Source: Candidatus Omnitrophota bacterium
Lineage (GTDB): Bacteria; Omnitrophota; Gorgyraeia; Duberdicusellales; 4484-171
DNA length: 64,000 bases
Assembly (NCBI GenBank): GCA_016935525.1
Contig: JAFGQU010000017.1
Coordinates: 73,559-137,558 of the forward strand
Reading direction: 5' to 3'
Shown: positions 1,433-56,899 of the stretch, piece by piece
Position numbering within the stretch: the stretch's first letter is position 1
Layout of the letters: every line of letters starts with the position of its first letter
Notes under the pieces: generated by a model
What the model saw: the letters and a program-made list of their open reading frames with translations, nothing else
Databases searched by the model: none
Told to the model about the DNA's origin: nothing
Translations under genes and position numbers: made by a program

Positions 1433-3184
1433 TCATAAATATTTTGAGAGGTCATCTTTTAAAATATTCTGCACTCTTTCTTGAAGAAAAGCTTCCATTT
1501 CTTTTGCCGTACCGTATTGAAAACATTCATCGGCGATCTTTTTTGCGTCGGAGTAACGGATCTTAGAGATTATCTCTTTGATCCGCGGGATACTGCGCGG
1601 AGGCATACTCAATTCATCGATACCAAACCCCACAAGTAACACCGCAAACAACGCCTCGCCCGCCATCTCTCCACACATTCCCACCCAGATATCATTGGCA
1701 TGGGCCGCGTCGATCACTCCTTTGATCAACTGAAGGACCGCCGGATGAGCCGGAGCATAGAGATGGGCGACTTTTTCATCAGCCCGGTCGATAGCCAATG
1801 AATACTGGATCAGATCGTTGGTCCCGATACTGAAGAAATCGCACTCTTTGGCTAAAATATGCGCGGTGAGCGCGGCGGAAGGGACTTCGATCATGACTCC
1901 TACCGAAATCTTGTCGTCGAACTTTTTTCCCTCTTTTTTAAGCTCTTTCTTGCACTCTTCTAATATGTTTTTTGCTTCTCTCACCTCTTCGACTCCCGAA
2001 ATCATCGGGAACATGATCTTGATATTTGTGCCGTACGATGCCCGTAATATTGCCCGCAATTGTTGTTTGAAAATATGCGGGTTGGCAAGACAGAACCGGA
2101 TCGCCCGCCACCCTAAAAAAGGAGTCATCTCCCGCGGCAGGTCTGGTTTAGAAAGGAATTTATCTCCTCCGATATCAATAGTGCGGATAATCACCGAATG
2201 CGGTTTTATCTTCCTGGCTACTTGAGAATAAGCTTTATATTGTTCTTCTTCGTTCGGTAAATCTTTTTTACCGAGGAACAGATATTCGGTACGGTACAGG
2301 CCGACCCCTTCAGCTTTATATTCATCCACCATGGGAAGCTCTTCCGGCAACTCGATATTTACCGAAACGATAAGACGTTTCTTGTCTTTCGTCTGGCTTT
2401 TAAGCGTTTTGGGGATATGGATCTTGAGCGCCTGTTTTCCTTCGGCTTTGATCCGGGCCTGATATTCCTTGATGGTCTTCTGAGACGGATTGATGTACAC
2501 AATCCCTTCGGCTCCGTCAACGATAAGCGTATCTCCGCTCTGGATATGTTCGGTAGCGCTTTTAGTCCCGACCACCGCAGGAATCCCCAAGTTGCGGGCA
2601 ATGATCGCGGTATGCGCGGTCCGCCCGCCCACGTCGGTCACAAAACCGAGAATGTTCGCTTTAGGAAGGCTCGCGGTTTCCGAAGGAGAAAGGTCATGGG
2701 CCACGATGATCACCTTCTCTTTCACATGTTCAAGCGTCTGCATGTCGAGGTTAAGCATCTTACGTAATACGCGTTTGGCGACATCCTCAATATCGTACGC
2801 CCGTTCTTTAAGATAGGCGTCATCTAATTTCTGCAAAATATCGATGTATTTTTTGACGCTTTGCGAAAAAGCATATTCGACATTGATCCGTTTATTCTTG
2901 ATCTGGTTGATAATATCTTCAATAAGCAGCCGGTCCTCCAAAACGAGCATGTGCGCTTCAAATATCTTGGCGTGATCATATCCCAGTTTTTCGTCTATCT
3001 GACGCTGCAGGCTTCCGATCTCCTTACGGGTCTCGATCAAAGCTTCTTCTAAGCGGTATATTTCCCGGGAAATGTCTTCAAAGGATATTTTCTTCTTAGG
3101 GACATCAATATGTTCAGACTGCACATAAAATGCTTTCCCGATCGATATACCTTCCGATGCCGCGATACCGATAATTTTATTCAT
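1433..3184 (-). CDS. ptsI: Phosphoenolpyruvate-protein phosphotransferase (PTS enzyme I)
   Basis: The conserved phospho-His region GGRTAHTAIIARNLGIPAVVG is present, together with a PEP-utilising TIM-barrel C-terminus (GTNDLIQY, GMCGEMAG). Confidence 0.93.
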   Translation of the reverse strand: MNKIIGIAASEGISIGKAFYVQSEHIDVPKKKISFEDISREIYRLEEALIETRKEIGSLQRQIDEKLGYDHAKIFEAHMLVLEDRLLIEDIINQIKNKRINVEYAFSQSVKKYIDILQKLDDAYLKERAYDIEDVAKRVLRKMLNLDMQTLEHVKEKVIIVAHDLSPSETASLPKANILGFVTDVGGRTAHTAIIARNLGIPAVVGTKSATEHIQSGDTLIVDGAEGIVYINPSQKTIKEYQARIKAEGKQALKIHIPKTLKSQTKDKKRLIVSVNIELPEELPMVDEYKAEGVGLYRTEYLFLGKKDLPNEEEQYKAYSQVARKIKPHSVIIRTIDIGGDKFLSKPDLPREMTPFLGWRAIRFCLANPHIFKQQLRAILRASYGTNIKIMFPMISGVEEVREAKNILEECKKELKKEGKKFDDKISVGVMIEVPSAALTAHILAKECDFFSIGTNDLIQYSLAIDRADEKVAHLYAPAHPAVLQLIKGVIDAAHANDIWVGMCGEMAGEALFAVLLVGFGIDELSMPPRSIPRIKEIISKIRYSDAKKIADECFQYGTAKEMEAFLQERVQNILKDDLSKYL

Positions 3185-3443: not shown

Positions 3444-4684
3444 TTTTTCCTGAATTGGTTATAAATATTTATTATATATTTCGCCGTCTTAAACGGGTCA
3501 TGCCGCAAATAATCCGTACGGCTGACGATATCGTCTTCAAACACCAGAACATTATTTTTTTCTATCCTGCTTACATCCGGCAATACCGGAAAAGATTTTT
3601 CCTGAGCGTATTTAAGAAGTAACTCGGGGTCCAATTTTCCGCAATTTACCAGACAGGTGTTGAGCACCCCCCGTCCGGCATGGCCGATCAATGTCTCCAA
3701 ATGGTCCGACGCGGTATAGCCATCGGTTTCTCCGTGCTGGGTCATCACATTACACAGATAGATCTTCATGATATCTGTCCGCTTAAGTAACGCGTCCTTT
3801 ACCGCTTTAATAAGCAAATTAGGTAAAATACTGGTAAACAGACTTCCCGGGCCGACAATAACGATATCAGCGTCTTTAATGACCTCAAGCGCCTCCGGAT
3901 TTGCCTGGACATCTTGAGGAAGAAGCGAAATGTTTTTAATCGATTTGTGCTGCTGATTGATCTTATCTTCCCCTTCCAGACTTGTCCCATCGACATATTC
4001 GGCTTTCAGGCGTACGTTAGCGAGACTGGCGGGAATCACCCGTCCCCTGATCGCTAACACTCGGCTCGATTCCTCGATCGCGTCACGAAAACTTCCGGTC
4101 ACCTGGGTCATTGCCGTAATAAAAATATTGCCGAAACTATGCCCTTTAATGCCGTTGCCTTCCTGGAAACGGTATTGAAAAAGGTCACGCATGAGCTGGG
4201 GGACCTCAGCCAGAGACACCAGACAATTACGGATATCGCCCGGGGGCAAAATACCGAATTCTTCCCTCAACCGGCCCGATGACCCCCCTTCATCGGCAAC
4301 CGTGACGATCGCACTTATGTTAGCCGTGTATTCTTTCAATCCTTCCAGGATACTGGAAAGCCCGGTACCTCCTCCGATGGTGACGATTTTGGGGCCTTTG
4401 GAAAGATACCGTTTCTCATAAAGGATATCAATAAGCCCTTTATCTTTTTTCGGATAGATCACATCAAAAAAACTTCTCGCCAGCGAAATAGTCCCCATGA
4501 TCACCAGGATCAGGGCAGAAAAAAAGATAATACCGTCAATGATCTTAATCGGCAGCAACTCGTCCAAAAAAAACCTGATACCGAATAAAATCAGGCAGAC
4601 AACACCACCCAGCATCAAGATTATCCAACGTTTTATCTTGAGTCCCGGATAAAACCATTTTATAAACTTTACAATGCTTTTCAT
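3416..4684 (-). CDS. yvcK: YvcK / gluconeogenesis-factor family protein (CofD-like, UPF0052) with N-terminal transmembrane segments
   Basis: The P-loop-like motif IVTIGGGTGLSSIL is present along with VTVADEGGSSGRLR and CNVMTQHGETDGY, all typical of YvcK/CofD-family proteins. The N-terminal ~70 aa are hydrophobic. Confidence 0.8.
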   Translation of the reverse strand: MKSIVKFIKWFYPGLKIKRWIILMLGGVVCLILFGIRFFLDELLPIKIIDGIIFFSALILVIMGTISLARSFFDVIYPKKDKGLIDILYEKRYLSKGPKIVTIGGGTGLSSILEGLKEYTANISAIVTVADEGGSSGRLREEFGILPPGDIRNCLVSLAEVPQLMRDLFQYRFQEGNGIKGHSFGNIFITAMTQVTGSFRDAIEESSRVLAIRGRVIPASLANVRLKAEYVDGTSLEGEDKINQQHKSIKNISLLPQDVQANPEALEVIKDADIVIVGPGSLFTSILPNLLIKAVKDALLKRTDIMKIYLCNVMTQHGETDGYTASDHLETLIGHAGRGVLNTCLVNCGKLDPELLLKYAQEKSFPVLPDVSRIEKNNVLVFEDDIVSRTDYLRHDPFKTAKYIINIYNQFRKKWNVLKKKS

Positions 4685-5411: not shown

Positions 5412-5517
5412 GCGGCATCGTAATGAGTAACGCGTAATGCGTACCCCGTAAAAACTACAAAGACCGATTATTTTGGACGCGTTTCGCGTTACGCAGAACA
5501 CGTTACGTCTCTCGAGT

Positions 5518-5598: not shown

Positions 5599-6020
5599 AG
5601 CGGCATAGTCCTTACGGACTGATTTTCAAATAAAACGGGTACCCTCAAAGAACAGTTTTTCTTCTGGGATCCGCCTCCTGCGGATGCCTTTCCTCATCAC
5701 TTTCTCACTCAAGAGCGAGGTGATTCGTATGCCGCTTCATGGGGACTCTGTCCCCTCTGACGCGGCTCTCGGAGATTTTTCAAAGAAGAGACGCCCTCGC
5801 GCCGCTGTCTCCCCTGAGGTAAAAGCAGAGAAGAAAAACTATTCATACGCAGCGCGCGGGACTACCCCGAAGACTCTCAAAGAAGAAAATTTCTCTAACC
5901 GCTGACCGCTGACCGCTTTACGCTATTCAAAGTTCTCGCCTCGGCGGTTTCCTTTTTCAAATAGCTTCTATTTTCTCTTAACGCGTTCCGCGTTACGCAT
6001 ATCGCGTTACGTATATTCAA

Positions 6021-8141: not shown

Positions 8142-8909
8142 TCATTTCTGACTATCTTCTACTACTTCCTGGTTTGACTCCTCTTTGGCTTCCTGGTCCG
8201 CGGCTTTACCAGTTGCAGTAGCCTGCCCTTTGCGGGCATTCTGAATCCCTTCAACAAGATAAGAAGCAATAGCGCGTACTGATTTGATCGCATCATCATT
8301 ACCGGGAATAGGGTAATCAATCGTTTCGGGATCTCCGTCGGTATCAATCAGGGCAATAATCGGGATCCCCAGTTTATTTGCTTCCCGTACACAGGCAAGT
8401 TCTTTTTTAGGATCAACAATAAAAACACATTGCGGTATTTGATTTATCTCGGCAACACCGGAATAGATTTTATGCATCCGATCCAACTCTTTACTTAGTC
8501 GAACTTTTTCTTTATGGGGAAGTTTGTTCAACCCTCCAGTCTCTTTCTGCTGTTTAAGACCGGTATAGGTCTTGATCCGGGAAACGATCGTAGAGAAATT
8601 GGTAAGAAAACCGCCGATCCAGCGTTCTACGATATACGGCATCTCACATTGTATCGCCAGGTCCTTTACCGTTTGCCTCAGTTGTTTTTTAGTCGCAACG
8701 AACAGGATCTTTCCGCCGCCTTTCACAAGTTCTTCAACGAATTCGCGGCTTTTCTGTAATTGGTCGGAAGTTTTCTCTAAATCAATAATATAGATATTTT
8801 TCTTCTTTCCAAAGATAAATTTCTTCATCCGGGGGTTCCAATGTTTCCTCAAATGCCCAAAATGAACCCCGCTTTCAAGCAGGTTCTTTATTATTTCCGG
8901 TAATGCCAT
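8142..8909 (-). CDS. rpsB: 30S ribosomal protein S2
   Basis: Full S2 homology ([30 protein letters not shown]), with a C-terminal acidic extension. Confidence 0.93.
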
Positions 8910-9082
8910 AGTCCTCCTTTTTTAAAGAAAAAGTATACCACAATCTTTTCCGGTTGCAACTGTTTTATTCTATTAGCTTTTTCCACCATCCCCCCCCTCT
9001 TCCGGCGACACTTTTTGCCCGGTTTTCTCAAAGCTTCCTTATACTATTTTGTATAAATATAAGGGAAGGTACAGGACTGCTT

Positions 9083-10961: not shown

Positions 10962-11864
10962 ATGAACGCGGGTATTATCGGTGTCGGGAATCTTGGTTCG
11001 ATCCATCTCCGTATCTTAAGAGGCATAAAATCCGTCAAAAAAATCTATCTGGTCGATATAGATCCAGGGAAACTTCACGCGTATCCCGAAGATAAGCTTT
11101 CCGATTACCGCCAACTGAACGGTAAAGTGGACTTTGTCATCGTTGCCGTACCGACCAGCCTCCACTACCCGATCTCAAGATTTTTTCTTGAACACAAGAT
11201 CCCGGTACTGGTAGAGAAACCGCTTACCAACCGTCTGAATGAGGCGAAATCACTCATCCATCTGGCAAAAAAGCATCACACCCTTCTTGAAGTCGGACAT
11301 GTCGAACGTTATAATAATGCCCTGATCTCTTCAAAAAAGTTCATCAAATCGCCGCGATTCATCGAATGCCACCGTCTGAGCCCGTACCCCTGGCGTTCAC
11401 TGGATATAGGAGTAGTCCTCGACCTGATGATCCACGATCTTGATATCATCCTGGATATCGTAAAAGATAAAGTAAAAAAGATCGAAGCGGTAGGAGTCAA
11501 CGTCCTGTCCGGATATGAGGATATCGCCAATGCCCGGCTCACTTTTTCAAAAGGCTGTATTGCCAATATCACCGCATCGCGCATCTCTCACGAAAGATTG
11601 CGGAAATTCCGGGTATTTTCTCAAAATTCCTACCTCTCGCTGGATTATGCCAACCAGAAAGTCGACATCTACCGCAAAGAAAGCAACCGGATCGAGAAAA
11701 AATCTCTAGACATCAAAAAAGGCGAATCGCTTAAAAACGAAGACAGTGAATTCGTTCAATCGGTAAAACGCAAGATGTTTTCTCTTTCGTCCTGCAATAA
11801 AGCGATGGATGCCCTTGCTCTTGCCTTGAAAATACAGAAAATAATCGCTAAATCCACGTCATGA
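10962..11864 (+). CDS. Gfo/Idh/MocA-family NAD(P)-dependent oxidoreductase (possibly a GnnA-like UDP-GlcNAc 3-dehydrogenase)
   Basis: N-terminal Rossmann motif GIIGVGNLGSIH and an EKPL motif typical of the Gfo/Idh/MocA family. The 4-nt overlap with lpxB suggests co-transcription. Confidence 0.7.
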   Translation: MNAGIIGVGNLGSIHLRILRGIKSVKKIYLVDIDPGKLHAYPEDKLSDYRQLNGKVDFVIVAVPTSLHYPISRFFLEHKIPVLVEKPLTNRLNEAKSLIHLAKKHHTLLEVGHVERYNNALISSKKFIKSPRFIECHRLSPYPWRSLDIGVVLDLMIHDLDIILDIVKDKVKKIEAVGVNVLSGYEDIANARLTFSKGCIANITASRISHERLRKFRVFSQNSYLSLDYANQKVDIYRKESNRIEKKSLDIKKGESLKNEDSEFVQSVKRKMFSLSSCNKAMDALALALKIQKIIAKSTS

Positions 11865-13000
11865 AAAAGATCGTATTCGTTGCCGGAGATAAATCGGGAG
11901 ATGTATACGCCGGGCTCCTAAGTCAGGAGCTAAAAGAGCAGTTCAAAAACAATATCGCCATTTATTCTTTCGGGGGAGAATCGCTCGCCCAGCATTCTCA
12001 GCAATTATTGGACCTTGTCAAACATTCAGTCTCCGGGATCTTCGAAGTCGCCCGTCATTTCCGGGAAATACTGAACGTATTTCGCTTCATTTTAGACCGT
12101 ATCCGCCAGTTAAAACCGGACTTGGTCATCCTGGTCGATTTTCCCGATTTTAATCTGCGCCTGGCAAAAGAACTGCACGGAAAATTTCCGCTTTTCTATT
12201 ACATCAGTCCGCAGGTGTGGGCCTGGCGAAAGAAACGCGTGCATGATATCAAAAAGTTTGTCGAAAAGATCATTGTGCTTTTTGAATTTGAAGAAAGGTT
12301 ATATCGACAAGCCGGAGTCGATGTGTGTTATTTTGGACATCCTCTCCTTGAAATCATCGCCAGGGGACTCCCCTCTGATCCACCGCAAAGTACGCCGGAT
12401 AATACTATCCTCCTTATGCCGGGCTCACGAAAAAATGAGATCGCCAGGCATTTGCCGGTAATGCTTTCGGCAAAAAAGATCATTGAGAAACAACTTCCCG
12501 ATTATCGGTTTAAAATCGTCCGGCCGGAAAATATTCCCGAACATTTTTATCTTTCGATGATGCCCTGTTCTCTACCGATGATAAGACATTCTTATCAAGA
12601 CATGGCCGGCGCCCGGTTCATCATCACTTCATCAGGTACCGCGACTTTGGAAATAGCTATTTTAGGCACTCCGTTTTTGATCATCTACAAAGTCAATCTG
12701 GCGACCTGGGTAATCCTGAAAAATATTGTACATATCGATTTTATCGGGATGCCTAATATAATCGCCGGCAAAGAAATCGCTAAAGAACTGGTACAATTTC
12801 AGGCGACCCCTACACAGATCGCATCATTTACTCTTAAAATGCTCCGGGATGAGAATGCTTATTTGAATATTAAACATGAATTACAGGCGATAAAAGACCG
12901 CCTCCGCCCTCAATCGGCTCTTACCAATACCGCAGGTTTTCTGGGAAAATATCTGGGACTTAAACAAAGTCACACGTCACACGACACACGACACACGTAA
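11861..13000 (+). CDS. lpxB: Lipid-A-disaccharide synthase
   Basis: GT19-family homology over its length (FVAGDKSGDVYAG, ISPQVWAWR, PGSRKNEI). The last ~9 codons (SHTSHDTRHT) are encoded by the GTCACA repeat cluster. Confidence 0.88.
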   Translation: MKKIVFVAGDKSGDVYAGLLSQELKEQFKNNIAIYSFGGESLAQHSQQLLDLVKHSVSGIFEVARHFREILNVFRFILDRIRQLKPDLVILVDFPDFNLRLAKELHGKFPLFYYISPQVWAWRKKRVHDIKKFVEKIIVLFEFEERLYRQAGVDVCYFGHPLLEIIARGLPSDPPQSTPDNTILLMPGSRKNEIARHLPVMLSAKKIIEKQLPDYRFKIVRPENIPEHFYLSMMPCSLPMIRHSYQDMAGARFIITSSGTATLEIAILGTPFLIIYKVNLATWVILKNIVHIDFIGMPNIIAGKEIAKELVQFQATPTQIASFTLKMLRDENAYLNIKHELQAIKDRLRPQSALTNTAGFLGKYLGLKQSHTSHDTRHT

Positions 13001-13087
13001 GCCTGCTTTGCAGGCTTGTCACACGTCACATGTATTATTCTTCACGTGTGACTCTGTGACTATGTGACCTTGTGACCATGTGACCAT
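12969..13087. repeat. GTCACA/TGTGAC oligonucleotide-repeat composite element with a central GC hairpin, between convergent lpxB and mnmG
   Basis: Left arm is an array of GTCACAcg/gacacacg units. The central hairpin is AAGCCTGC-TTT-GCAGGCTT at 12999-13017. The right arm carries inverted units (cacgTGTGACtcTGTGACtaTGTGACctTGTGACcaTGTGACc). It probably also acts as a bidirectional terminator. Confidence 0.8.
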
Positions 13088-14909
13088 GGGTTTTGCCTTT
13101 TTGGGCTTTGACGATGTACGTATACATGATCATTACCGCGGCCGGAGTGATTCCGCTGATCGCTAACGCGTGCCCGAGCGTAGCCGGGCCAAACGCCTGA
13201 AGTTTTTCTTTTATTTCCGCCGAAAGCGAAGGGATAGATTTAAAATCAAAATCGGCCGGGATTTTGATCCGATCCATATTTTTGAGTTCTTCAGCCTGTA
13301 GAGCCTGACGGCGGATAAACGTATCATATTTTACCAGAATCTCGATCTCCCGCCGTAAAGACGGATCCGTGACTTTAAACGGGATCCTATCCTGTAATTG
13401 TTCGAAACCGACTTGCGGCCGCTTCAAATATTCAAACAGGCTTATCCGGCCCCTGTTCTCGATGAGTACGGTCTCGGTCTTAAGTACCTGCAAAGCTTTC
13501 TTTAACTGTATTTCTTTTTCTCTCAAAACCGAAAGTTCCTCTTTCCCCACTAACCCTAATTTTCCGGCAATCGCGAGTAAACGCATATCGGCGTTCGATT
13601 CCCGTAAAGAAAGACGAAATTCCGAACGGGAAGTGAACATCCGATAAGGTTCATCCGTACCGCAGCGAGTAAGGTCATCGATCAATACGCCGATAAGCGC
13701 TTGGTCACGCCTCAGGATAAACGGGTTTTGTCTTTTAATATTTAAAGCCGCGTTAATACCGGCGATTACTCCCTGAGACGCAGCTTCTTCATATCCGGTA
13801 GTACCGTTTACCTGTCCGGCAAAAAATAGCCCTTTTACCGATTTCGCCTCCAGAGTAGGATACAGTTGACGGGCATCGATCACGCCATGTTCGATGCCAT
13901 AACCGGGACGCATCAACACCGCCTGCTCTAACCCGTCAATAGTACGGATAAATTTTTCCTGGACATCAAACGGCAAAGAAGTAGACACCCCGTTAGGATA
14001 GATCTCTATCGAATCGAATCCTTCCGGCTCGATAAACACCTGATGCCGGTCGCGGTCACCGAACCGTACGATTTTATCTTCCAGGGAAGGACAGTAACGG
14101 ACCCCCCGGGCTTTGATCCGACCGGAATATAGCGGCGACCGAGAAAGGTTTTTACGAATGATCTGGTGAGTCCGCTTATTGGTATGGGTGATATAACAGC
14201 TCAATTGCCGGGAGGGAAGGCCCCGGGTATGCCGGGAAAACGGTTCTACATCGTATTCGGGCTTCTGTTCCGTCATTTTCGAAAAATCCAGAGTACGTTT
14301 ATCTAACCGGGCACAAGTCCCGGTCTTAAAATGTTTCGTTTTAAAACCAAGGCGTTTGATGTTTTTGAAAAGGTCATCGGAGGAAAGTTCATATAACCGC
14401 CCCCCGGAGAAACTTTCCAGCCCGATATGGAGAGTGCTCCTCAAAAAAGTGCCCGCGCATATGATCACCTGCCGGGCTTCGATCACCTGGCCGAAATTTG
14501 TGACTATTCCGGTAACTTTTTTATTCTTTGCTAAAATATCGTGTACCTGGACTTGCAGGATCTCGATGTTCTTTTGACGTTCAAGGTGTGTGCGGGCGGC
14601 TTCAGGATAACGAAACCGGTCGACCTGAGCCCGGGTCGACCACACCGCTTTACCTTTACTTTTGTTCAAACAACGGTATCCTATCGCGCACTCATCGGCA
14701 AGGCGGCCGATAAGTCCGCCGAGAGCATCTACTTCCCTGACCAGATGGCCTTTCGATACCCCGCCTACGGCAGGATTACAGGAAAGTTTGCCTATAGTAT
14801 CCAGGCCTAACGTCACCAGCAATACCGAAACATCAAGCTTTGCCGCAGCATAGACCGCTTCAATCCCGGCATGCCCACCTCCGACGACTATCACGTCCCA
14901 ACGTTTCAT
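13035..14909 (-). CDS. mnmG: tRNA uridine 5-carboxymethylaminomethyl modification enzyme MnmG (GidA)
   Basis: FAD-binding N-terminus (DVIVVGGGHAGIEA) and full-length GidA homology. The C-terminal ~18 aa (THGHMVTRSHSHRVTREE) are encoded by the TGTGAC repeat arm. Confidence 0.92.
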   Translation of the reverse strand: MKRWDVIVVGGGHAGIEAVYAAAKLDVSVLLVTLGLDTIGKLSCNPAVGGVSKGHLVREVDALGGLIGRLADECAIGYRCLNKSKGKAVWSTRAQVDRFRYPEAARTHLERQKNIEILQVQVHDILAKNKKVTGIVTNFGQVIEARQVIICAGTFLRSTLHIGLESFSGGRLYELSSDDLFKNIKRLGFKTKHFKTGTCARLDKRTLDFSKMTEQKPEYDVEPFSRHTRGLPSRQLSCYITHTNKRTHQIIRKNLSRSPLYSGRIKARGVRYCPSLEDKIVRFGDRDRHQVFIEPEGFDSIEIYPNGVSTSLPFDVQEKFIRTIDGLEQAVLMRPGYGIEHGVIDARQLYPTLEAKSVKGLFFAGQVNGTTGYEEAASQGVIAGINAALNIKRQNPFILRRDQALIGVLIDDLTRCGTDEPYRMFTSRSEFRLSLRESNADMRLLAIAGKLGLVGKEELSVLREKEIQLKKALQVLKTETVLIENRGRISLFEYLKRPQVGFEQLQDRIPFKVTDPSLRREIEILVKYDTFIRRQALQAEELKNMDRIKIPADFDFKSIPSLSAEIKEKLQAFGPATLGHALAISGITPAAVMIMYTYIVKAQKGKTHGHMVTRSHSHRVTREE

Positions 14910-18932: not shown

Positions 18933-20088
18933 ACGGTCTTATTTTTCTTTGAAAATTATCGAAATCGACTTCGATCAATCCGAAACGATGAGCATACCCT
19001 TTATCCCACTCAAAATTATCTAAAAGCGACCACCAGAAATATCCGCGAATATCCGCCTTATTTGCCAATCCTTTTGCCATTGCCGTGACGTGTTCAATAA
19101 GATACCGTTCATATAAAGCGTCATCGGTTTCAGTCGTACCGTTCTCGGTGATAATAAGCGGAAGTGTATACCTACGGTATACACACATCAGTATTTTCAA
19201 AAAACCTTCGGCACTTACCCGCCAGCCTAAGGTGTTTTTACGCTCGGGGTGATGAGCAAGACGGCATTCTTTTCCGAAAAAAGAAAGGGCGGGACGGACA
19301 TATTCTTTACAATAATAATTTACTCCCAGAAAATCGAGAGCGTTTTTTTTCATGCAAGCATCGAGGAAACGATAGTTGAAAAAGTATGAACGTAATCCGG
19401 CAAAAAGATGGGTAAGCCCCACCCCGGTATACCGGCAAGGATCAAAAACCCGGACATGTTTGGCGATACTGACTAAAGAGGATGGTTTTATCCGTTTGAT
19501 CTCCTGATAGGCAGTAATATACGCACTCAGGAGGTTATTGTACACACCTTTGGCAACGCGTAATGAGCTCACCCCCGGCGGCCAGATCCCTTGAATAAAA
19601 CCGTTATATATATATACTAACGGTTCGTTGAATACGATCCAGTAATCAATCGTCTCGCCCAATTCCTTGACCGCGGTTATTACATATTTCAGGAAAAAAT
19701 CGATGTTACGGGCTGATTGCCAACCGCCCTGTTCTATAAACCAGGCCGGATTGGTAAAATGATGAAGCGTCACCAACGGGATAAGGTTGTGTCTTTTGAG
19801 TGAAGAAAAAACCTGACGGTAATGCTCGATCGCCTTTTGAGAAAAAGTGCGGTTTTCAGGGCAGATACGGGCCCATTCTAAAGATAAACGGATCGATTTC
19901 TGAGAAAGCGATCGAGCGAGTGCGAAATCCTGATCGAATAAATGATAATGCCGGCAGGCATCGCCTGCCGGCATAAGATTCCTGGTTTGTTCCCACCGAT
20001 ACCAATCGGCAGTAAAGTTCTGACCTTCAGTCTGATAACTGGAGATACTCGATCCCCACAAAAAATCGGGAGGAAACCCGCATTTCAT
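18883..20088 (-). CDS. Glycoside hydrolase family 1 (beta-glucosidase-like)
   Basis: GH1 hallmarks are present: the FLWGSSISSYQTEG N-terminus, the acid/base NEP motif (VFNEPLV) and the nucleophile ITENG. Confidence 0.85.
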   Translation of the reverse strand: MKCGFPPDFLWGSSISSYQTEGQNFTADWYRWEQTRNLMPAGDACRHYHLFDQDFALARSLSQKSIRLSLEWARICPENRTFSQKAIEHYRQVFSSLKRHNLIPLVTLHHFTNPAWFIEQGGWQSARNIDFFLKYVITAVKELGETIDYWIVFNEPLVYIYNGFIQGIWPPGVSSLRVAKGVYNNLLSAYITAYQEIKRIKPSSLVSIAKHVRVFDPCRYTGVGLTHLFAGLRSYFFNYRFLDACMKKNALDFLGVNYYCKEYVRPALSFFGKECRLAHHPERKNTLGWRVSAEGFLKILMCVYRRYTLPLIITENGTTETDDALYERYLIEHVTAMAKGLANKADIRGYFWWSLLDNFEWDKGYAHRFGLIEVDFDNFQRKIRPFARRYKQICEQNGIVS

Positions 20089-20095
20089 TTAATGG

Positions 20096-20524
20096 TTATT
20101 TTGAAAGGATCTCCAACGCTTTATCGTTATTGTCCGATGAGAAAATAATCGAAGCCTCATTCTGAGAACTTGACGTAGACCCGTAGATGTATTTTAAATC
20201 GACTCCCGCATTCTTTAATTTCAACGATATCCCGCACAATTCGCCTACTTTATCCGGCATCTCCACAATCACGACTTCTTTGATCTCAACGGTACACCCA
20301 CTTCCGGTCAACACATCTTTCGCTTTATTATTATCAGAGGTAATAATCCGGAAATAAGCTTTATCATCGACCACATAAGCAGACACCGCACGCACGTTGA
20401 TCGCTTCATCACGCAGCCGTTCGGAAATATCTTCCAGAGTACCTACTTCATTCGGAGCCGTCACGAACAATTCATTACCTTTTACCGCTTTCACACTACA
20501 CCTTCCTTTCTTCCAAAGGGTCAC
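20096..20524 (-). CDS. Tandem ACT-domain small-molecule-binding protein
   Basis: Two ~65-aa beta-alpha-beta-beta-alpha-beta ACT-like repeats (VTAPNEVGTLEDISERL... and VEMPDKVGELCGISLKL...). Confidence 0.6.
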   Translation of the reverse strand: MTLWKKGRCSVKAVKGNELFVTAPNEVGTLEDISERLRDEAINVRAVSAYVVDDKAYFRIITSDNNKAKDVLTGSGCTVEIKEVVIVEMPDKVGELCGISLKLKNAGVDLKYIYGSTSSSQNEASIIFSSDNNDKALEILSK

Positions 20525-20730
20525 ATAGACACATAGTCACACGTATGCCTTCGGCAAGTCACAAGGTCACATAGTCACATGGTCACACGTGAATAAAAAT
20601 ACGTGTGTCATGTGACGTGTAACGTGTGACTGCCTGCGTAGCAGGCGTTCGTGTGACGTGCTTACCCCGTTGCGCAAGCTCACGGGGTGTCGTGTGACTA
20701 GCCGGACGATAGACCGGCGTGTGACCTTCC
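20515..20730. repeat. Largest GTCACA/TGTGAC repeat cluster (~215 bp) with embedded GC hairpins
   Basis: The left arm is gtcacatag/acacatag/tcacacgt/gtcacaag/gtcacatag/tcacatgg/tcacacgtg (period 8-9 nt). The right arm is tgtgac units with hairpins GCCTGCgtaGCAGGC, CCCCGttgcgcaagctcaCGGGG and CCGGacgatagaCCGG. The 25-mer gtcacatagacacatagtcacacgt recurs identically at 24279. Confidence 0.85.
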
Positions 20731-20732
20731 AT

Positions 20733-21032
20733 TTACATATCCAATAATTTTCTCGCGCCGTCTTTAGAAAGAGCTTTTTTGAAATCTTCAAAATCAATAA
20801 ACGAACACCGCGGATGTTTCTGGCAGAAACGGATAAGGACATTGGCATCAACCTTACGGCGAAACCCCACATATTTGAAAAAAGCCCGGCATTGAGGGCA
20901 CGCATCAAGATTGAGGTCAAGCCCGATGGCATGACAATGATAACATTCCGCCGATAACTCGCCTACCACCATCAGATGCTGTTCGATATCTTTTATGTCG
21001 GCTTCCTGCCAGATACGTAAGAAGGCCTTCAT
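20733..21032 (-). CDS. Small Cys-rich (zinc-ribbon-like) hypothetical protein
   Basis: A 99-aa protein with CYHCH...CPQC plus further Cys/His residues (FCQKHPRC) and no recognised family. It overlaps the LOG gene by 4 nt. Confidence 0.45.
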   Translation of the reverse strand: MKAFLRIWQEADIKDIEQHLMVVGELSAECYHCHAIGLDLNLDACPQCRAFFKYVGFRRKVDANVLIRFCQKHPRCSFIDFEDFKKALSKDGARKLLDM

Positions 21033-22228: not shown

Positions 22229-22277
22229 CAAAAAAGACAAAAAAATACCCCTGGAAAATGAATGTTTCCAGGGGTAT
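22229..22277 (-). terminator. Rho-independent terminator downstream of the outer-membrane-protein gene
   Basis: A perfect hairpin ATACCCCTGG-(13 nt)-CCAGGGGTAT is followed on the minus strand by a U-run (plus-strand aaaaaagacaaaaaaat). Confidence 0.75.
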
Positions 22278-22292
22278 AAAACTTCTCTATAC

Positions 22293-23621: not shown

Positions 23622-24199
23622 ACCTCCTTCTTAAGGTACACGTGTGTTCTCCAAGGTATTTATTGCTAACAAGGTAATTAGGCCTTGAAATTCTCTAAAA
23701 CCAATCTATAGTTATATCACCCACTGTGTAGACAATTTCCGGTCGAAATTTTGTGTGTTTGGGATTTTCCTCACCTCCTTTCGTTCGGGGATTGAAACTG
23801 TCTGCGGATGGTATAACCTTAATTTAATTAAGGCTTTCCCTTTTAAACCAAGTCAAAGAACTAAATATTATATTAAATTATAACTAAAACAGTTTTAACA
23901 AAAAACGTACTTATTGTCAAGATATTTTTTGGCGGATACCTCTATCCCTAGCGACCTGCCCCCCATAACCACTATATATCGCTGAGGCAACTGTTTTTTT
24001 CCCTAAAACAATACTCTTTGGCGCCGGCACACATAGATCCCGACGCCTGATTTCAATGATTAAAGAGAGATTACGGTGATTAAAACCCCCAATATCCATC
24101 ATGTCAATCTCTACACGGAAGCGCTTTCACCATTGGCGTGGACACTCCTCCCCGCCTTTTCCTACGCGTTACGCAGAACGCACGACGCGTTACGAGAAG

Positions 24200-24278: not shown

Positions 24279-24376
24279 GGTCACATAGACACATAGTCAC
24301 ACGTTGAAAAAAAACCGTCATTAAGATGGTTAAACCATATACCGACGTGTGACCTTGTGACATGTGTCGTGTGACG
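24279..24376. repeat. GTCACA/TGTGAC repeat cluster between tRNA-Arg and apt
   Basis: ggtcacatagacacatagtcacacgt ... cgtgtgaccttgtgacatgtgtcgtgtgacg. It shares an identical 25-mer with the 20515 cluster. Confidence 0.85.
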
Positions 24377-33636: not shown

Positions 33637-34101
33637 TCACCCTGAAGCTTCGACCCTGTTGGTGATTCCTCCTCGAGAAGTAAATTCGCCGATCACGGTT
33701 ATCTGCCATGGTTGTAATATTTTTTTTAAATCGGCAAGGATCTTATTTACTACGTGCTCATTATACACTTTCACGTTACGATAGGCATACAGATAATATT
33801 TGAGCGCTTTCAGTTCGATCAATTTCCGACGCGGCGTATAGCGGATACTCACCGTCGCAAAATCCGGTAATCCCGAGAACGGACAGATACAGGTGAATTC
33901 CCGCGATACCAGTTCTACCGTGATCTTACGCTGAGGGTATTCATAAGGGATCGTCTCAAGGAGTGTCGCATCGATATCGGCGGAACGAAAGGTTTTCCCC
34001 TGTACTTTTTTCGCTTTTTTTTCTAACGCTGATTCAATCCTGTCTTCATATACCATTTTTTTATCATCCTCCTCAATACAGGTCACAAGGACACATCCCA
34101 C
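33637..34101 (-). CDS. queF: NADPH-dependent 7-cyano-7-deazaguanine reductase
   Basis: Catalytic Cys region FTCICPFSGLPDFA and the QueF motif ELKALKYYL are present. Confidence 0.88.
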   Translation of the reverse strand: MGCVLVTCIEEDDKKMVYEDRIESALEKKAKKVQGKTFRSADIDATLLETIPYEYPQRKITVELVSREFTCICPFSGLPDFATVSIRYTPRRKLIELKALKYYLYAYRNVKVYNEHVVNKILADLKKILQPWQITVIGEFTSRGGITNRVEASG

Positions 34102-34160
34102 ACCGAGATTTCTCTTATCCAGCGGGACCCCGCTGTATAAAAATATTATGGAACGGGGAA

Positions 34161-34296
34161 GTCACATAGTCACATATAAATGTTCAATGCACATTTAGCA
34201 ATTAGCAATGGACAATGAAAGATTCCAGGATGATAGATTATCCTCTCTGAGTTTCCTCATTGCTAAATGATAATTGCTAATTGACAATTGATAATT
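34161..34296. repeat. Mixed GTCACA and TTAGCAAT/ATTGCTAA repeat cluster between queF and recO
   Basis: gtcacatagtcacat, then ttagcaattagcaatggacaatg and the inverted arm cattgctaaatgataattgctaattgacaattgataatt. Confidence 0.8.
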
Positions 34297-46410: not shown

Positions 46411-46438
46411 GTCTCTGGTCTCTGGTCTCTGGTCTCTG
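46411..46438. repeat. Perfect tandem heptamer (TCTCTGG)x4 immediately upstream of the guaA start codon
   Basis: cag-TCTCTGG-TCTCTGG-TCTCTGG-TCTCTGG-tttt. It ends 5 nt from the guaA ATG, which is on the minus strand at 46405. A related tctctggtct word occurs upstream of rnhB at ~51118. Confidence 0.85.
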
Positions 46439-46480
46439 GTTTTACACTAAATACCGAAGACTATCGACTAGTAACGTTCT

Positions 46481-56807: not shown

Positions 56808-56899
56808 GTCACACGCCTGCCTGACGGCAGGCTAGTCACACGACACACGTCACACGTCTTTTTTACATGTGACCTTGTGACTTTGTGACATTGTGACAT
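56808..56899. repeat. GTCACA/TGTGAC repeat cluster with central GCCTGC-loop-GCAGGC hairpin, in the 105-bp infB-trpS spacer
   Basis: ggGTCACAcGCCTGCctgacgGCAGGCtaGTCACAcgacacacGTCACAcgtctttttta-caTGTGACctTGTGACttTGTGACatTGTGACat. Confidence 0.85.

What the first reader, a model, noticed from the sequence alone, without database searches (positions are those of the whole stretch)
12969..13087. Repeat element between convergent lpxB and mnmG donates the C-terminal codons of both genes
Both convergent ORFs read through into the GTCACA/TGTGAC arrays before reaching a stop. lpxB ends ...KQSHTSHDTRHT* and mnmG ends ...KTHGHMVTRSHSHRVTREE*, which is about 15 aa longer than E. coli MnmG. Either these proteins carry short repeat-encoded His/Thr/Arg-rich tails, or the element inserted over the original stops. 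The central AAGCCTGC-TTT-GCAGGCTT hairpin is well placed to act as a bidirectional terminator.
Basis: seen in the sequence. Interest (0 to 1): 0.55.

Follow-up and report, generated by a model that had tools for sequence, protein, structure and literature searches.

The report
Repeat hairpin extends two converging genes
A 125-base palindromic repeat built from GTCACA units lies between two converging housekeeping genes of an Omnitrophota bacterium and supplies the last 12 and 17 codons of each. It looks like a gene-less copy of a widespread, barely studied cassette whose full form carries the small protein gene known from intervening sequences of 23S rRNA.

Summary
lpxB (11861..13000, +) and mnmG (13035..14909, -) both read into a GTCACA/TGTGAC array element and stop inside it. 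Alignments of 120 Omnitrophota orthologues of each protein show the tails (KQSHTSHDTRHT; HGHMVTRSHSHRVTREE) are extra. Only the nearest relative (62-69% aa identity) has similar tails, and it carries the orthologous element at the same junction. The gene-proximal arm reads (GTCACAN)n, which has no stop codon in any frame, so read-through follows from the element's geometry.

The element belongs to a dispersed family. The window holds five GTCACA-type loci, and about seven more loci have the same architecture with other 7-nt units. Sixteen of 19 period-7/8 arrays lie in the 8% of the window that is non-coding.

Inverted period-7/8 arrays of this kind bracket PF05635 genes (23S-rRNA-IVS protein, Avd-like): 61 of 72 sampled genes have one upstream and 65 of 72 downstream, against 11 of 80 control windows. 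The proteins closest to the Omnitrophota ones carry GTCACA-type arms. I read the window element as a gene-less, IVS-like hairpin.

Its role in RNA is inferred, not shown: 3'-end hairpin, bidirectional terminator or RNase III site. The central small hairpin alone does not meet terminator criteria. I class it as a new variant of known kinds, of moderate interest.

The parts
11861..13000 (+). lpxB (lipid-A-disaccharide synthase), 379 aa; the stop TAA at 12998-13000 lies inside the element
   Evidence: ORF; PF02684 homologues and NCBI name
12962..12997 (+). 12 extra LpxB codons (KQSHTSHDTRHT): AAACAA A-tract followed by arm units
   Evidence: C-terminal alignment of 120 orthologues. Over 12962-13006, 43 of 45 nt are identical to the relative, against 63-65% identity in the flanking lpxB CDS
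12969..12996 (.). Outer 5' arm: four 7-nt units GTCACAC GTCACAC GACACAC GACACAC
12999..13017 (.). Nested G+C hairpin AAGCCTGC-TTT-GCAGGCTT. Variants recur inside other copies at 20628-20645 and 56813-56833, and in L061, where one stem pair is changed on both sides (G:C to A:T)
13018..13031 (.). Inner 5' arm: GTCACAC GTCACAT
13032..13045 (.). Loop GTATTATTCTTCAC; contains the mnmG stop codon (13035-13037)
13046..13086 (.). 3' arm: G + five 8-nt units TGTGAC(TC/TA/CT/CA/CA)
13038..13088 (-). 17 extra MnmG codons (HGHMVTRSHSHRVTREE), read from the 3' arm and the loop
   Evidence: C-terminal alignment of 120 orthologues; PDB alignment to E. coli MnmG
13035..14909 (-). mnmG (tRNA U34 carboxymethylaminomethyl modification enzyme), 624 aa
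13089..13110 (+). U-rich tract after the hairpin on the + transcript (GGTTTTGCCTTTTTGGGCTTTG). It is the antisense of the Lys-rich MnmG codons
20520..20725 (.). Family copy: 7 GTCACA-type units, loop, 7 TGTGAC-type units, with three nested hairpins
   Evidence: z = -6.5. A GTCACA/TGTGAC element occupies the same intergenic site in L001
24280..24375 (.). Family copy between tRNA-Arg and a phosphoribosyltransferase gene
   Evidence: z = -3.9. Orthologous copy in L001; 23 of 24 nt of the left arm are identical
34082..34176 (.). GTCACA units in direct orientation bracketing a different ~100-nt repeated module
56808..56897 (.). Family copy directly after the infB (IF-2) stop codon
   Evidence: (z = -6.4)

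Best explanation
SHOWN. The element is one copy of a dispersed palindromic repeat family of Omnitrophota. Its arms are tandem 7-8-nt units, with GTCACA(N1-2) on the 5' arm and the reverse complement TGTGAC(N1-2) on the 3' arm, and small G+C hairpins are nested inside. It fills the space between convergent lpxB and mnmG so tightly that neither gene keeps the stop position of its orthologues.

The arm nearest each gene reads (GTCACAN)n, which has no stop codon in any frame, while the far arm has TGA in all frames. Each ORF therefore runs into the element: 12 codons for LpxB, 17 for MnmG. Each ends at a stop the element supplies, a TAA at the foot of the nested hairpin and a TAA in the loop. The arrangement predates the split from the nearest known relative.

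INFERRED. (a) The tails are tolerated by-products, not adaptations. Both proteins have naturally variable C-termini.

(b) The element is a gene-less relative of IVS-like cassettes, in which the same kind of inverted heptad arrays bracket a PF05635 (S23p/Avd-like four-helix-bundle) gene.

(c) It acts as RNA. Both transcripts fold into a ~125-nt segmented hairpin flanked by A- and U-tracts. This would form or protect the 3' ends of both convergent mRNAs, by bidirectional termination or exonuclease block, or possibly by RNase III cutting as in the 23S rRNA intervening sequences.
For: Tails are extra and repeat-encoded: 120 orthologues each; PDB. The relative has the orthologous element and similar tails.

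Stop-free near arm, stop-rich far arm. A third housekeeping protein, NusB of the relative, has a 19-aa tail read from another copy.

Family status: 10 pattern matches against 0.06 expected. Sixteen of 19 period-7/8 arrays lie in the 8% non-coding sequence, P about 2e-15, whereas 8 of 9 arrays with other periods lie inside genes. A paralogous copy with the same composite layout is in L061. About 26 of 116 pattern hits in species-representative genomes are Omnitrophota-like, and 16 of 17 mixed clusters have GTCACA units before TGTGAC units.

Hairpin: z = -4.2 (+ strand) and -5.5 (- strand); other copies z = -2.2 to -6.5.

Constraint: 43 of 45 nt identical to the relative against about 65% in flanking CDS, P about 1e-6.

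U- and A-tracts flank the whole hairpin, and terminator-like calls fall at its two outer ends.

IVS link: PF05635 genes sit inside GTCACA...TGTGAC pairs in L005, L029, L074 and L083. Of 72 PF05635 loci found by protein pattern alone, 61 have a period-7/8 array within 260 nt upstream and 65 downstream; 47 have reverse-complementary units. Controls: 11 of 80 distal windows and 17 of 720 shuffles. The closest proteins have GTCACA-type arms.

The Coxiella 23S IVS carries the same protein family, a terminal inverted-repeat stem cut by RNase III, and tandem heptamers at the cut site (PMC4990558).
Against: No transcript data, so termination, 3' protection and RNase III cutting are all untested.

An RNase III cut in the stem would remove the stop codons of both mRNAs. 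That argues against efficient cleavage at this particular copy.

The arms are not perfectly complementary. The period is 7 on one arm and 8 on the other, and the GACACA variants are not compensated. The hexamer is conserved beyond what pairing requires, which hints at sequence-specific recognition.

No PF05635 gene was found in the window, in about 9 kb of extensions, or in 35 kb of the relative.

No target-site duplication was seen, and no empty site is available because the nearest relative is only 62-69% identical.

Flanking-gene orientation of family copies does not differ clearly from background.
Confidence: 0.6

Rival explanations
1. The heptad arrays act as double-stranded DNA. They would be cooperative binding sites for a small sequence-specific protein, such as a ribbon-helix-helix protein like Omega/ParB of pSM19035 or the PF05635 protein itself, and hairpin formation would be incidental.
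For: The pSM19035 parS sites are contiguous 7-bp heptads WATCACW in direct and inverted order, for example AATCACA AATCACA AATCACT TGTGATT TGTGATT. That is one base away from GTCACA/TGTGAC and has the same orientation order.

The hexamer is conserved across species while the spacers vary. Position-2 variants (GACACA) are not compensated on the other arm.

The commonest array length is 4 units, and at least 4 heptads are required for Omega function.
Against: At least five other unit families share the same architecture in this one window, which would need many cognate proteins.

The two arms carry similar numbers of units, loops vary from 10 to 45 nt, and nested G+C hairpins keep their stems while their loops vary, with one pair changed on both sides. 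These features point to intrastrand pairing.

The period is mixed between 7 and 8. Copies hug stop codons and tRNA ends and were not seen in the two divergent (promoter-only) gaps. No cognate protein was identified.
Confidence: 0.15
2. The arrays have no function. They would be by-products of replication slippage, which favours 7-nt units, combined with quasi-palindrome correction. They would expand in any dispensable intergenic DNA until stopped by selection, sometimes overshooting into tolerant C-termini.
For: Heptamers are reported as the commonest class of long simple-sequence repeat in bacteria, with polymerase slippage proposed as the cause (Mrazek 2007, as cited in PMC4679880).

Unit number differs between the orthologous right arms, 5 against 4. 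The same junction holds arrays of unrelated units in L119 and L121. Arrays fill gaps from the stop codon to the next gene's ribosome-binding region.
Against: The left arm is 43/45 identical between genomes whose flanking CDS is about 65% identical. That is higher than the rpsB leader at 65/71.

The same GTCACA unit and the same arm order recur across many Omnitrophota species. Composite copies share the nested hairpin (L061). There is a tight, specific association with one protein family.
Confidence: 0.18
3. The His/Thr/Arg-rich tails are functional, selected parts of LpxB and MnmG, and the repeat-like DNA reflects coding constraint.
For: The LpxB tail has the same length and differs at 1 of 12 residues between the two genomes.
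Against: None of the other 118 orthologues of either protein has a similar tail.

The same units are non-coding at four other window loci. Conservation includes synonymous positions. The MnmG tails differ in length and sequence between the two genomes, 17 against 10 aa.

Similar tails appear on the unrelated NusB and on a spurious ORF, 20567..20932.
Confidence: 0.04
4. Assembly or frame artefact: array length is mis-assembled, so the real genes stop elsewhere.
For: Short tandem repeats can collapse in short-read MAG assemblies. Adding or removing one unit changes the reading frame and the tail.
Against: An independent Logan assembly is identical over 16.8 kb. The relative's independently assembled LpxB tail has the same length and stop. 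In any frame the ORFs still read 11-34 codons into the element.
Confidence: 0.03

Closest known systems
23S rRNA intervening sequences (IVS) carrying the S23p ORF (PF05635), e.g. Coxiella burnetii and Leptospira
   Same: Terminal inverted repeats form a long stem around a loop. Tandem heptamers occur in the arm, with copy number varying between strains. ORF-bearing and ORF-less forms both exist, and size is about 100-450 nt. In Omnitrophota and in metagenomes the same protein family is bracketed by the same GTCACA-type arrays (PMC4990558).
   Different: This copy has no ORF. It is not in rRNA: none of 20 PF05635 loci tested had an rRNA hit. It overlaps the ends of two protein genes. Its arms are wholly tandem units with regular internal loops. 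RNase III cleavage is untested and would decapitate both ORFs.
Intergenic heptanucleotide tandem repeats: TAACTGA of Beggiatoaceae/cyanobacteria, GGGNATC of Xanthomonas/Nostoc, cyanobacterial STRR
   Same: 7-nt units in 2-6 or more copies, strongly intergenic, near start or stop codons. One orientation gives stops in all frames, the other none. Repeat-encoded residues occur at the extreme ends of proteins such as MurG (PMC4679880; PMC4692102).
   Different: Those are described as direct repeats only. Here arrays come in inverted pairs that form hairpins with nested G+C hairpins, periods 7 and 8 are mixed, several unit families coexist, and there is a link to PF05635.
REP / BIME / REPIN elements of proteobacteria
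   Same: High-copy extragenic palindromes in mosaic arrangements, close to stop codons. They are vertically persistent and are known to stabilise upstream mRNA (my own knowledge; PMC2817692 and PMC8266576 listed).
   Different: REP units are 20-40-nt imperfect palindromes with a conserved GTAG end and a RAYT transposase. Here the arms are tandem heptads, and no RAYT was looked for or seen.
Rickettsia palindromic elements (RPE)
   Same: Palindromic repeats that become part of ORFs and add peptide segments (my own knowledge; not checked here).
   Different: RPEs insert in frame inside genes and are 100-150 nt of unique sequence. Here only the C-terminal ends are affected, and the tails arise from stop-free tandem units.
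Omega/ParB heptad arrays (parS) of plasmid pSM19035
   Same: Contiguous 7-bp units with a TCAC(A) core in direct-then-inverted order; at least 4 units are needed (PMC9499535).
   Different: Those sites overlap promoters on a plasmid, have no loop and a strict 7-bp period, and bind a known ribbon-helix-helix protein. None of this is established here.
Bidirectional intrinsic terminators
   Same: A hairpin between convergent genes, flanked by an A-tract and a U-tract.
   Different: The stem is about 45 pairs long, segmented and not G+C-rich at its base. The scan called only small sub-hairpins at the outer ends, and the central hairpin lacks a U-tract.

Membership tests
Intergenic heptanucleotide tandem repeats (LSSR/STRR/TAACTGA type) | Head-to-tail copies of a 7-nt unit, 3 or more copies | tested here: met
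   TRF: 12969-12998, period 7, 4.3 copies; 13047-13088, period 8, 5.2 copies
Intergenic heptanucleotide tandem repeats (LSSR/STRR/TAACTGA type) | Same unit at many loci, enriched outside genes | tested here: met
   Five GTCACA loci in 64 kb; 16 of 19 period-7/8 arrays lie in the 8% non-coding sequence
IVS-like PF05635 cassette | Terminal inverted repeats able to form a long stem | tested here: met
   Folds with z = -4.2 and -5.5
IVS-like PF05635 cassette | Tandem heptamers within the arms | tested here: met
   the Coxiella precedent is; 61 and 65 of 72 PF05635 loci have such arrays
IVS-like PF05635 cassette | PF05635 ORF in the loop | tested here: not met
   The loop is 14 nt. There is no PF05635 homologue in the window or L001. 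ORF-less IVSs are known, so this makes it a derivative, not a full member
IVS-like PF05635 cassette | Arms of the same unit type as ORF-bearing cassettes in related organisms | tested here: met
   L005, L029, L074, L125, L130, L132 and L133 have GTCACA/TGTGAC arms
IVS-like PF05635 cassette | Excision of the stem by RNase III | not testable with these tools
IVS-like PF05635 cassette | Location inside 23S rRNA | tested here: not met
   The element lies between lpxB and mnmG. There were no rRNA hits in the window or in 20 PF05635 loci
REP/REPIN | 20-40-nt imperfect palindromic unit with a conserved GTAG/CTAC end | tested here: not met
   The arms are tandem 7-8-nt units and there is no GTAG end
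REP/REPIN | Cognate RAYT (Y1 transposase) in the genome | not tested
   Only 64 kb of the genome is available. The L001 and L122 gene tables show none
MITE | Terminal inverted repeats plus a target-site duplication | tested here: not met
   Inverted arms are present, but no direct duplication flanks any of six copies inspected
Intrinsic (Rho-independent) terminator | G+C-rich hairpin immediately followed by a U-tract | tested here: inconclusive
   The central hairpin was not called. Calls fell at 13076-13089(+) followed by GTTTTGCCTT and at 12992-12969(-) followed by TTTGTTTAAG, that is, at the outer ends of the whole element
Omega-type RHH heptad operator/parS | Contiguous 7-bp heptads bound by a cognate RHH dimer | not testable with these tools
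   There is motif resemblance only. The period is mixed 7/8, a loop is present, and no protein was identified
Rfam RNA families | Match to any curated covariance model | tested here: not met
   No hit at E <= 1 in 12900-13150

The most novel reading that the evidence does not exclude
The inverted heptad arrays and the pentameric Avd-like four-helix-bundle protein (PF05635/S23p) may form one system, comparable to REP elements with their RAYT transposase. In this reading the cassette rides inside host transcripts, whether rRNA, operon spacers or 3' UTRs. Its arms, possibly bound by the protein ring (commonest length 4 units), would direct RNase III-type release of its own mRNA. Hundreds of gene-less copies such as this one would then shape 3'-end formation of neighbouring housekeeping genes. 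Unit slippage would switch the repeat-encoded C-terminal tails between frames.
Probability: 0.15. Interest if true: 0.8.

Novelty: new variant of a known kind. Interest (0 to 1): 0.5.

Why it matters
For annotation: in Omnitrophota and other genomes rich in such arrays, predicted C-termini that read VT(R/K)SH / HTSH, and short 'hypothetical' ORFs, are read-through of stop-free repeat arms. Examples are lpxB, mnmG, nusB and the spurious ORF 20567..20932.

For biology: the finding links three things that have been treated separately. These are bacterial heptamer tandem repeats, the intervening sequences of 23S rRNA, and the uncharacterised S23p/Avd-like protein family. Stand-alone PF05635 genes turn out to be bracketed by inverted heptad arrays in 85-90% of the cases sampled. 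If the arrays are RNA processing or termination signals, or the protein's binding sites, that would give a testable function to a protein family and a repeat class that have lacked one for 30 years.

Two essential genes sharing one element for both their stop codons is also a neat case of selfish or structural DNA constraining coding sequence.

Tried and rejected
1. Census of repeat-encoded tails. I searched the protein database with the in-frame translation of (GTCACAC)n, (VTRHTSH)x6. It returned only 27 hits, all 51-74-aa ORFs without domains, probably over-called ORFs across arrays. Short tails cannot reach significance.

2. Other long MnmG tails. P0021 and P0103 are not array-encoded; they come from other hairpins or unique sequence.

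3. Empty-site test. The nearest relative of either protein among 5.8 billion sequences is only 62-69% identical and carries the element. More distant genomes have other arrays or none at the junction. No empty allele is available.

4. Orientation preference of family copies. Counts were convergent 4, co-directional 26, divergent 2, against a background of 7, 80 and 8. This is not distinguishable.

5. G-U wobble asymmetry, to tell RNA from DNA and to find the transcribed strand. There are too few informative variants, and the main variant (T to A at unit position 2) is a transversion.

6. Known families. No Rfam hit at E <= 1 and no similar plasmid DNA.

7. PF05635 gene in this genome. None in the window, the Logan extensions, or L001, L026 and L061.

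8. CRP-like site reading (TGTGA-N6-TCACA). Rejected, because the half-sites are in the opposite order and tandem.

9. MITE reading. Rejected for lack of target-site duplications.

10. Literature. Searches found no description of these Omnitrophota repeats, and none of a general PF05635-heptad link beyond Coxiella.
Full report
WHAT IS THERE. The window comes from a Candidatus Omnitrophica MAG: MnmG and LpxB match NCBI entries at 100%. At 12962-13110 the + strand reads as follows:
- AAACAAA
- four 7-nt units GTCACAC GTCACAC GACACAC GACACAC (12969-12996)
- G-TAA
- hairpin AAGCCTGC-TTT-GCAGGCTT (12999-13017)
- GTCACAC GTCACAT (13018-13031)
- loop GTATTATTCTTCAC
- G plus five 8-nt units TGTGAC(TC/TA/CT/CA/CA) (13047-13086)
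- TGG GTTTTGCCTTTTT

lpxB (11861..13000, +) stops at the TAA at 12998-13000. mnmG (13035..14909, -) stops at 13035-13037, in the loop. The two stops are 34 nt apart and both lie inside the element. The unit pattern occurs 10 times in the window against 0.06 expected. An independent Logan assembly is identical over 16.8 kb.

ARE THE TAILS EXTRA? I aligned the 120 best MnmG homologues, all Omnitrophota-like. The conserved C-terminus is ...ISGITPAAxxxIYxFIKK followed by a short K/R-rich end. The query continues with HGHMVTRSHSHRVTREE. Against E. coli MnmG the query has 15 more residues after the last aligned position.

For LpxB, most homologues end within 0-6 residues of ...YL-xL, while the query adds KQSHTSHDTRHT. 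A few homologues have unrelated tails, for example the acidic ...PKDDLEE.

Similar tails occur only in the nearest relative, GCA_964483625.1 (69% and 62% aa identity): HKVTKSQGHM and KQSHTPHDTRHT. That genome is syntenic over 21 kb and has the orthologous element at the same junction.

No closer relative exists among 5.8 billion proteins, so no empty site can be examined.

WHY BOTH GENES READ IN. The element is a palindrome, so each gene enters through an arm that reads (GTCACAN)n on its own sense strand. That orientation has no stop in any frame. The opposite orientation has TGA in all three frames. Any ORF abutting the element is therefore extended by 11-34 codons, depending on frame, and no further.

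The same effect gives NusB of the relative a 19-aa tail. It also creates a spurious 121-aa ORF at 20567..20932 in the window.

At three other copies in the window, real genes stop 5-8 nt before the first unit. Across Omnitrophota-like loci the distances are 1-11 nt.

A FAMILY, NOT A ONE-OFF. GTCACA-type elements also lie at 20520-20725, 24280-24375, 34082-34176 and 56808-56897. About seven further loci have the same layout, array then loop then inverted array, but with other 7-nt units: CGTAACG, ACCGCTG/TAGCGGT, GTCTCTG, ACTATCG/TAGTC, TTAGCAA.
- Of 19 TRF arrays with period 7, 8 or 14, 16 lie wholly in the 8% of the window that is non-coding (P about 2e-15). Two of the other three are the arrays of this finding.
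- Arrays with other periods are inside genes in 8 of 9 cases.
- Most elements fold as long segmented hairpins, 6-7-bp helices separated by small internal loops, with z from -2.2 to -6.5. Two are weak. The element in question gives z = -4.2 on the + strand and -5.5 on the - strand.

CONSERVATION. The relative has arrays at the same three intergenic sites. From the first extra lpxB codon to the start of the nested hairpin, 43 of 45 nt are identical. The flanking CDS is 63-68% identical (P about 1e-6). For comparison, the rpsB leader is 65/71 identical.

The right arm keeps the hexamers but differs in unit number (5 against 4) and in spacers. A paralogous copy in the relative (L061) has the same composite: four units, GTAA, an ACCTGC-TTC-GCAGGT hairpin with one stem pair changed on both sides, a T-rich loop and four inverted units.

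DISTRIBUTION. About 26 are Omnitrophota-like. The rest include Acidobacteriota, Bacteroidales, Verrucomicrobia, Elusimicrobia and cyanobacteria. In Omnitrophota-like loci 16 of 17 mixed clusters have GTCACA units before TGTGAC units.

At the lpxB|mnmG junction of more distant Omnitrophota there are arrays of other units or none:
- L119 has ..CTAA / TTAGGA.. units, with both stops inside units.
- L121 has ATRGCTS x4.
- L120 has almost nothing.

THE LINK TO IVS CASSETTES. While annotating genes next to arrays, I found PF05635 genes (23S rRNA intervening-sequence protein, bAvd-like) lying exactly between a GTCACA arm and a TGTGAC arm in L005, L029 and L074 (Omnitrophota-like) and in L083 (Bacteroidetes).

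I then collected 80 PF05635 loci from metagenomes using peptide patterns only. Of 72 loci with usable flanks:
- 61 have a period-7/8 array of 3 or more units within 260 nt upstream;
- 65 have one downstream;
- 56 have both;
- 47 have reverse-complementary units.

Controls gave 11 of 80 distal windows, 3 of 72 gene interiors and 17 of 720 shuffles (Fisher P of 1e-19 and 1e-22). The median gaps are 20 nt (array to gene start) and 36 nt (gene end to array), and the commonest array length is 4 units. Units differ among loci, but the proteins closest to the Omnitrophota ones carry GTCACA or GTCACC arms. None of 20 such loci tested lies in rRNA.

The published Coxiella IVS, a 428-nt element in 23S rRNA with an ORF of the same protein family, has a 28-bp terminal inverted-repeat stem cut by RNase III. 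It also has 2-3 tandem heptamers at the cut site, varying in number among strains (PMC4990558). ORF-less IVSs are well known.

I therefore read the window element as a gene-less derivative of this cassette type. No PF05635 gene was found in the roughly 110 kb available from this genome and its relative, so the kinship rests on architecture and unit identity.

HOW IT PROBABLY WORKS. Shown: the geometry explains the tails. Inferred: the RNA role.

The scan's calls lie at the two outer ends of the whole element. There AAACAAA (the K-Q codons of lpxB) and GTTTTGCCTTTTT (the antisense of the Lys-rich MnmG codons) give the A-tract, hairpin, U-tract layout of a bidirectional terminator. Both tracts are conserved in the relative.

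RNase III processing, as in classical IVSs, is the other candidate. However, a cut inside the stem would strip both mRNAs of their stop codons, so efficient cleavage at this copy seems unlikely.

RIVALS. A DNA-level reading cannot be excluded. The pSM19035 Omega/ParB sites are heptads AATCACA...TGTGATT in the same direct-then-inverted order. Here the hexamer is conserved beyond the needs of pairing, while variants such as GACACA are not compensated. Against it stand the many unit families, the similar unit numbers on the two arms, the loops and the nested hairpins.

A purely mutational origin, heptamer slippage plus quasi-palindrome correction, fits the unit-number changes and the turnover of units at the junction. 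It does not fit the 43/45 conservation or the protein association.

Functional tails and assembly error are both unlikely, as set out under the rival explanations.

COMPARISON AND NOVELTY. Repeat-encoded protein ends and heptamers overlapping stop codons have been described for TAACTGA repeats, including a MurG C-terminus (PMC4679880). Intergenic heptamers near stop codons are described in Xanthomonas and Nostoc (PMC4692102). REP/BIME and Rickettsia RPE are analogues by function.

The following were not found in the literature I could search:
- the paired-inverted heptad architecture with nested hairpins in Omnitrophota;
- one element providing both stop codons of a convergent gene pair;
- the near-universal bracketing of stand-alone PF05635 genes by such arrays.

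It is a new variant of known kinds, of moderate interest, raised by the IVS/PF05635 connection, which is testable.

Noticed in passing
L125-L204 (metagenome loci); L005 6246-6724; L029 2024-2551; L074 2-303; L083 2465-3042: Stand-alone PF05635 (23S rRNA IVS protein / Avd-like four-helix-bundle) genes are bracketed by inverted period-7/8 tandem arrays in 85-90% of 72 sampled loci, against 14% of distal control windows. Units vary by locus and the commonest length is 4 units. None of 20 loci tested is in rRNA.
   Followed up: partly
window 5600-5860 (- strand); L001 18950-19110 and 2690-2850: A conserved structured segment lies between tRNA-Leu and tRNA-Lys, with a paralogue elsewhere in the relative. 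RNAalifold finds 29 pairs, 5 with changes on both sides. No Rfam hit at E <= 1. This is a candidate new small RNA or repeat module.
   Followed up: partly
window 34082-34176; L001 ~2995-3085, ~4500-4575, ~19330-19390: A second ~100-nt repeated module (CCCGCACCGATATGTACATATATAGCGGGACCCCGCTGTATAAAAATATTACGGAG..GGGGC) is flanked by direct GTCACA units. It sits at different intergenic sites in the two genomes, so it moves or duplicates.
   Followed up: no
L026 4148-4624 (- strand): NusB of the relative genome carries a 19-aa tail (SQGHIDTRSHEGRKEDTDV) read from another GTCACA element. This is a third housekeeping protein with a repeat-encoded C-terminus.
   Followed up: yes
window 5412-5516, 5893-6020, 24160-24195: Arrays of CGTAACG/ACGCGTT-type heptamers directly abut the ends of tRNA-Gly, -Leu, -Lys and -Arg, within 3-8 nt. 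Similar arrays follow tRNA-Lys in the relative.
   Followed up: partly
window 46411-46440: [quoted passage not shown] It occupies the place where a ribosome-binding site would be expected.
   Followed up: no
window 20567-20932 (-) and 20096-20524 (-): The 121-aa ORF is an artefact of reading through stop-free GTCACA units; the real gene is 20733..21032 (99 aa, conserved in L001). The GTG start of the ACT-domain ORF at 20524 lies in the array and is probably over-extended.
   Followed up: yes
window 22245-22280; L001 ~2530-2570: A canonical bidirectional terminator-like hairpin (A-tract, ACCCCTGGAAA...TTTCCAGGGGT, T-tract) is conserved in both genomes. Ordinary intrinsic terminators therefore coexist with the heptad hairpins.
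   Followed up: no
window 8905-8975; L001 16005-16075: The rpsB 5' leader is 65/71 identical between the two genomes, far above the coding average. It is probably an autoregulatory leader.
   Followed up: no
L001, L026, L061 (GCA_964483625.1) and several 'binchicken' MAGs: These records are labelled 'uncultured Planctomycetia/Planctomycetales', yet their MnmG and LpxB proteins are nearest to Omnitrophota proteins and they share the Omnitrophota repeat family. The taxonomic labels look imprecise.
   Followed up: no
L119 1590-1720: In a 61%-identical relative, the same lpxB|mnmG junction holds an element of the same architecture built from ..CTAA / TTAGGA.. units. Because the unit contains TAA, both genes stop within the first units and gain only 4-8 residues.
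   Followed up: yes
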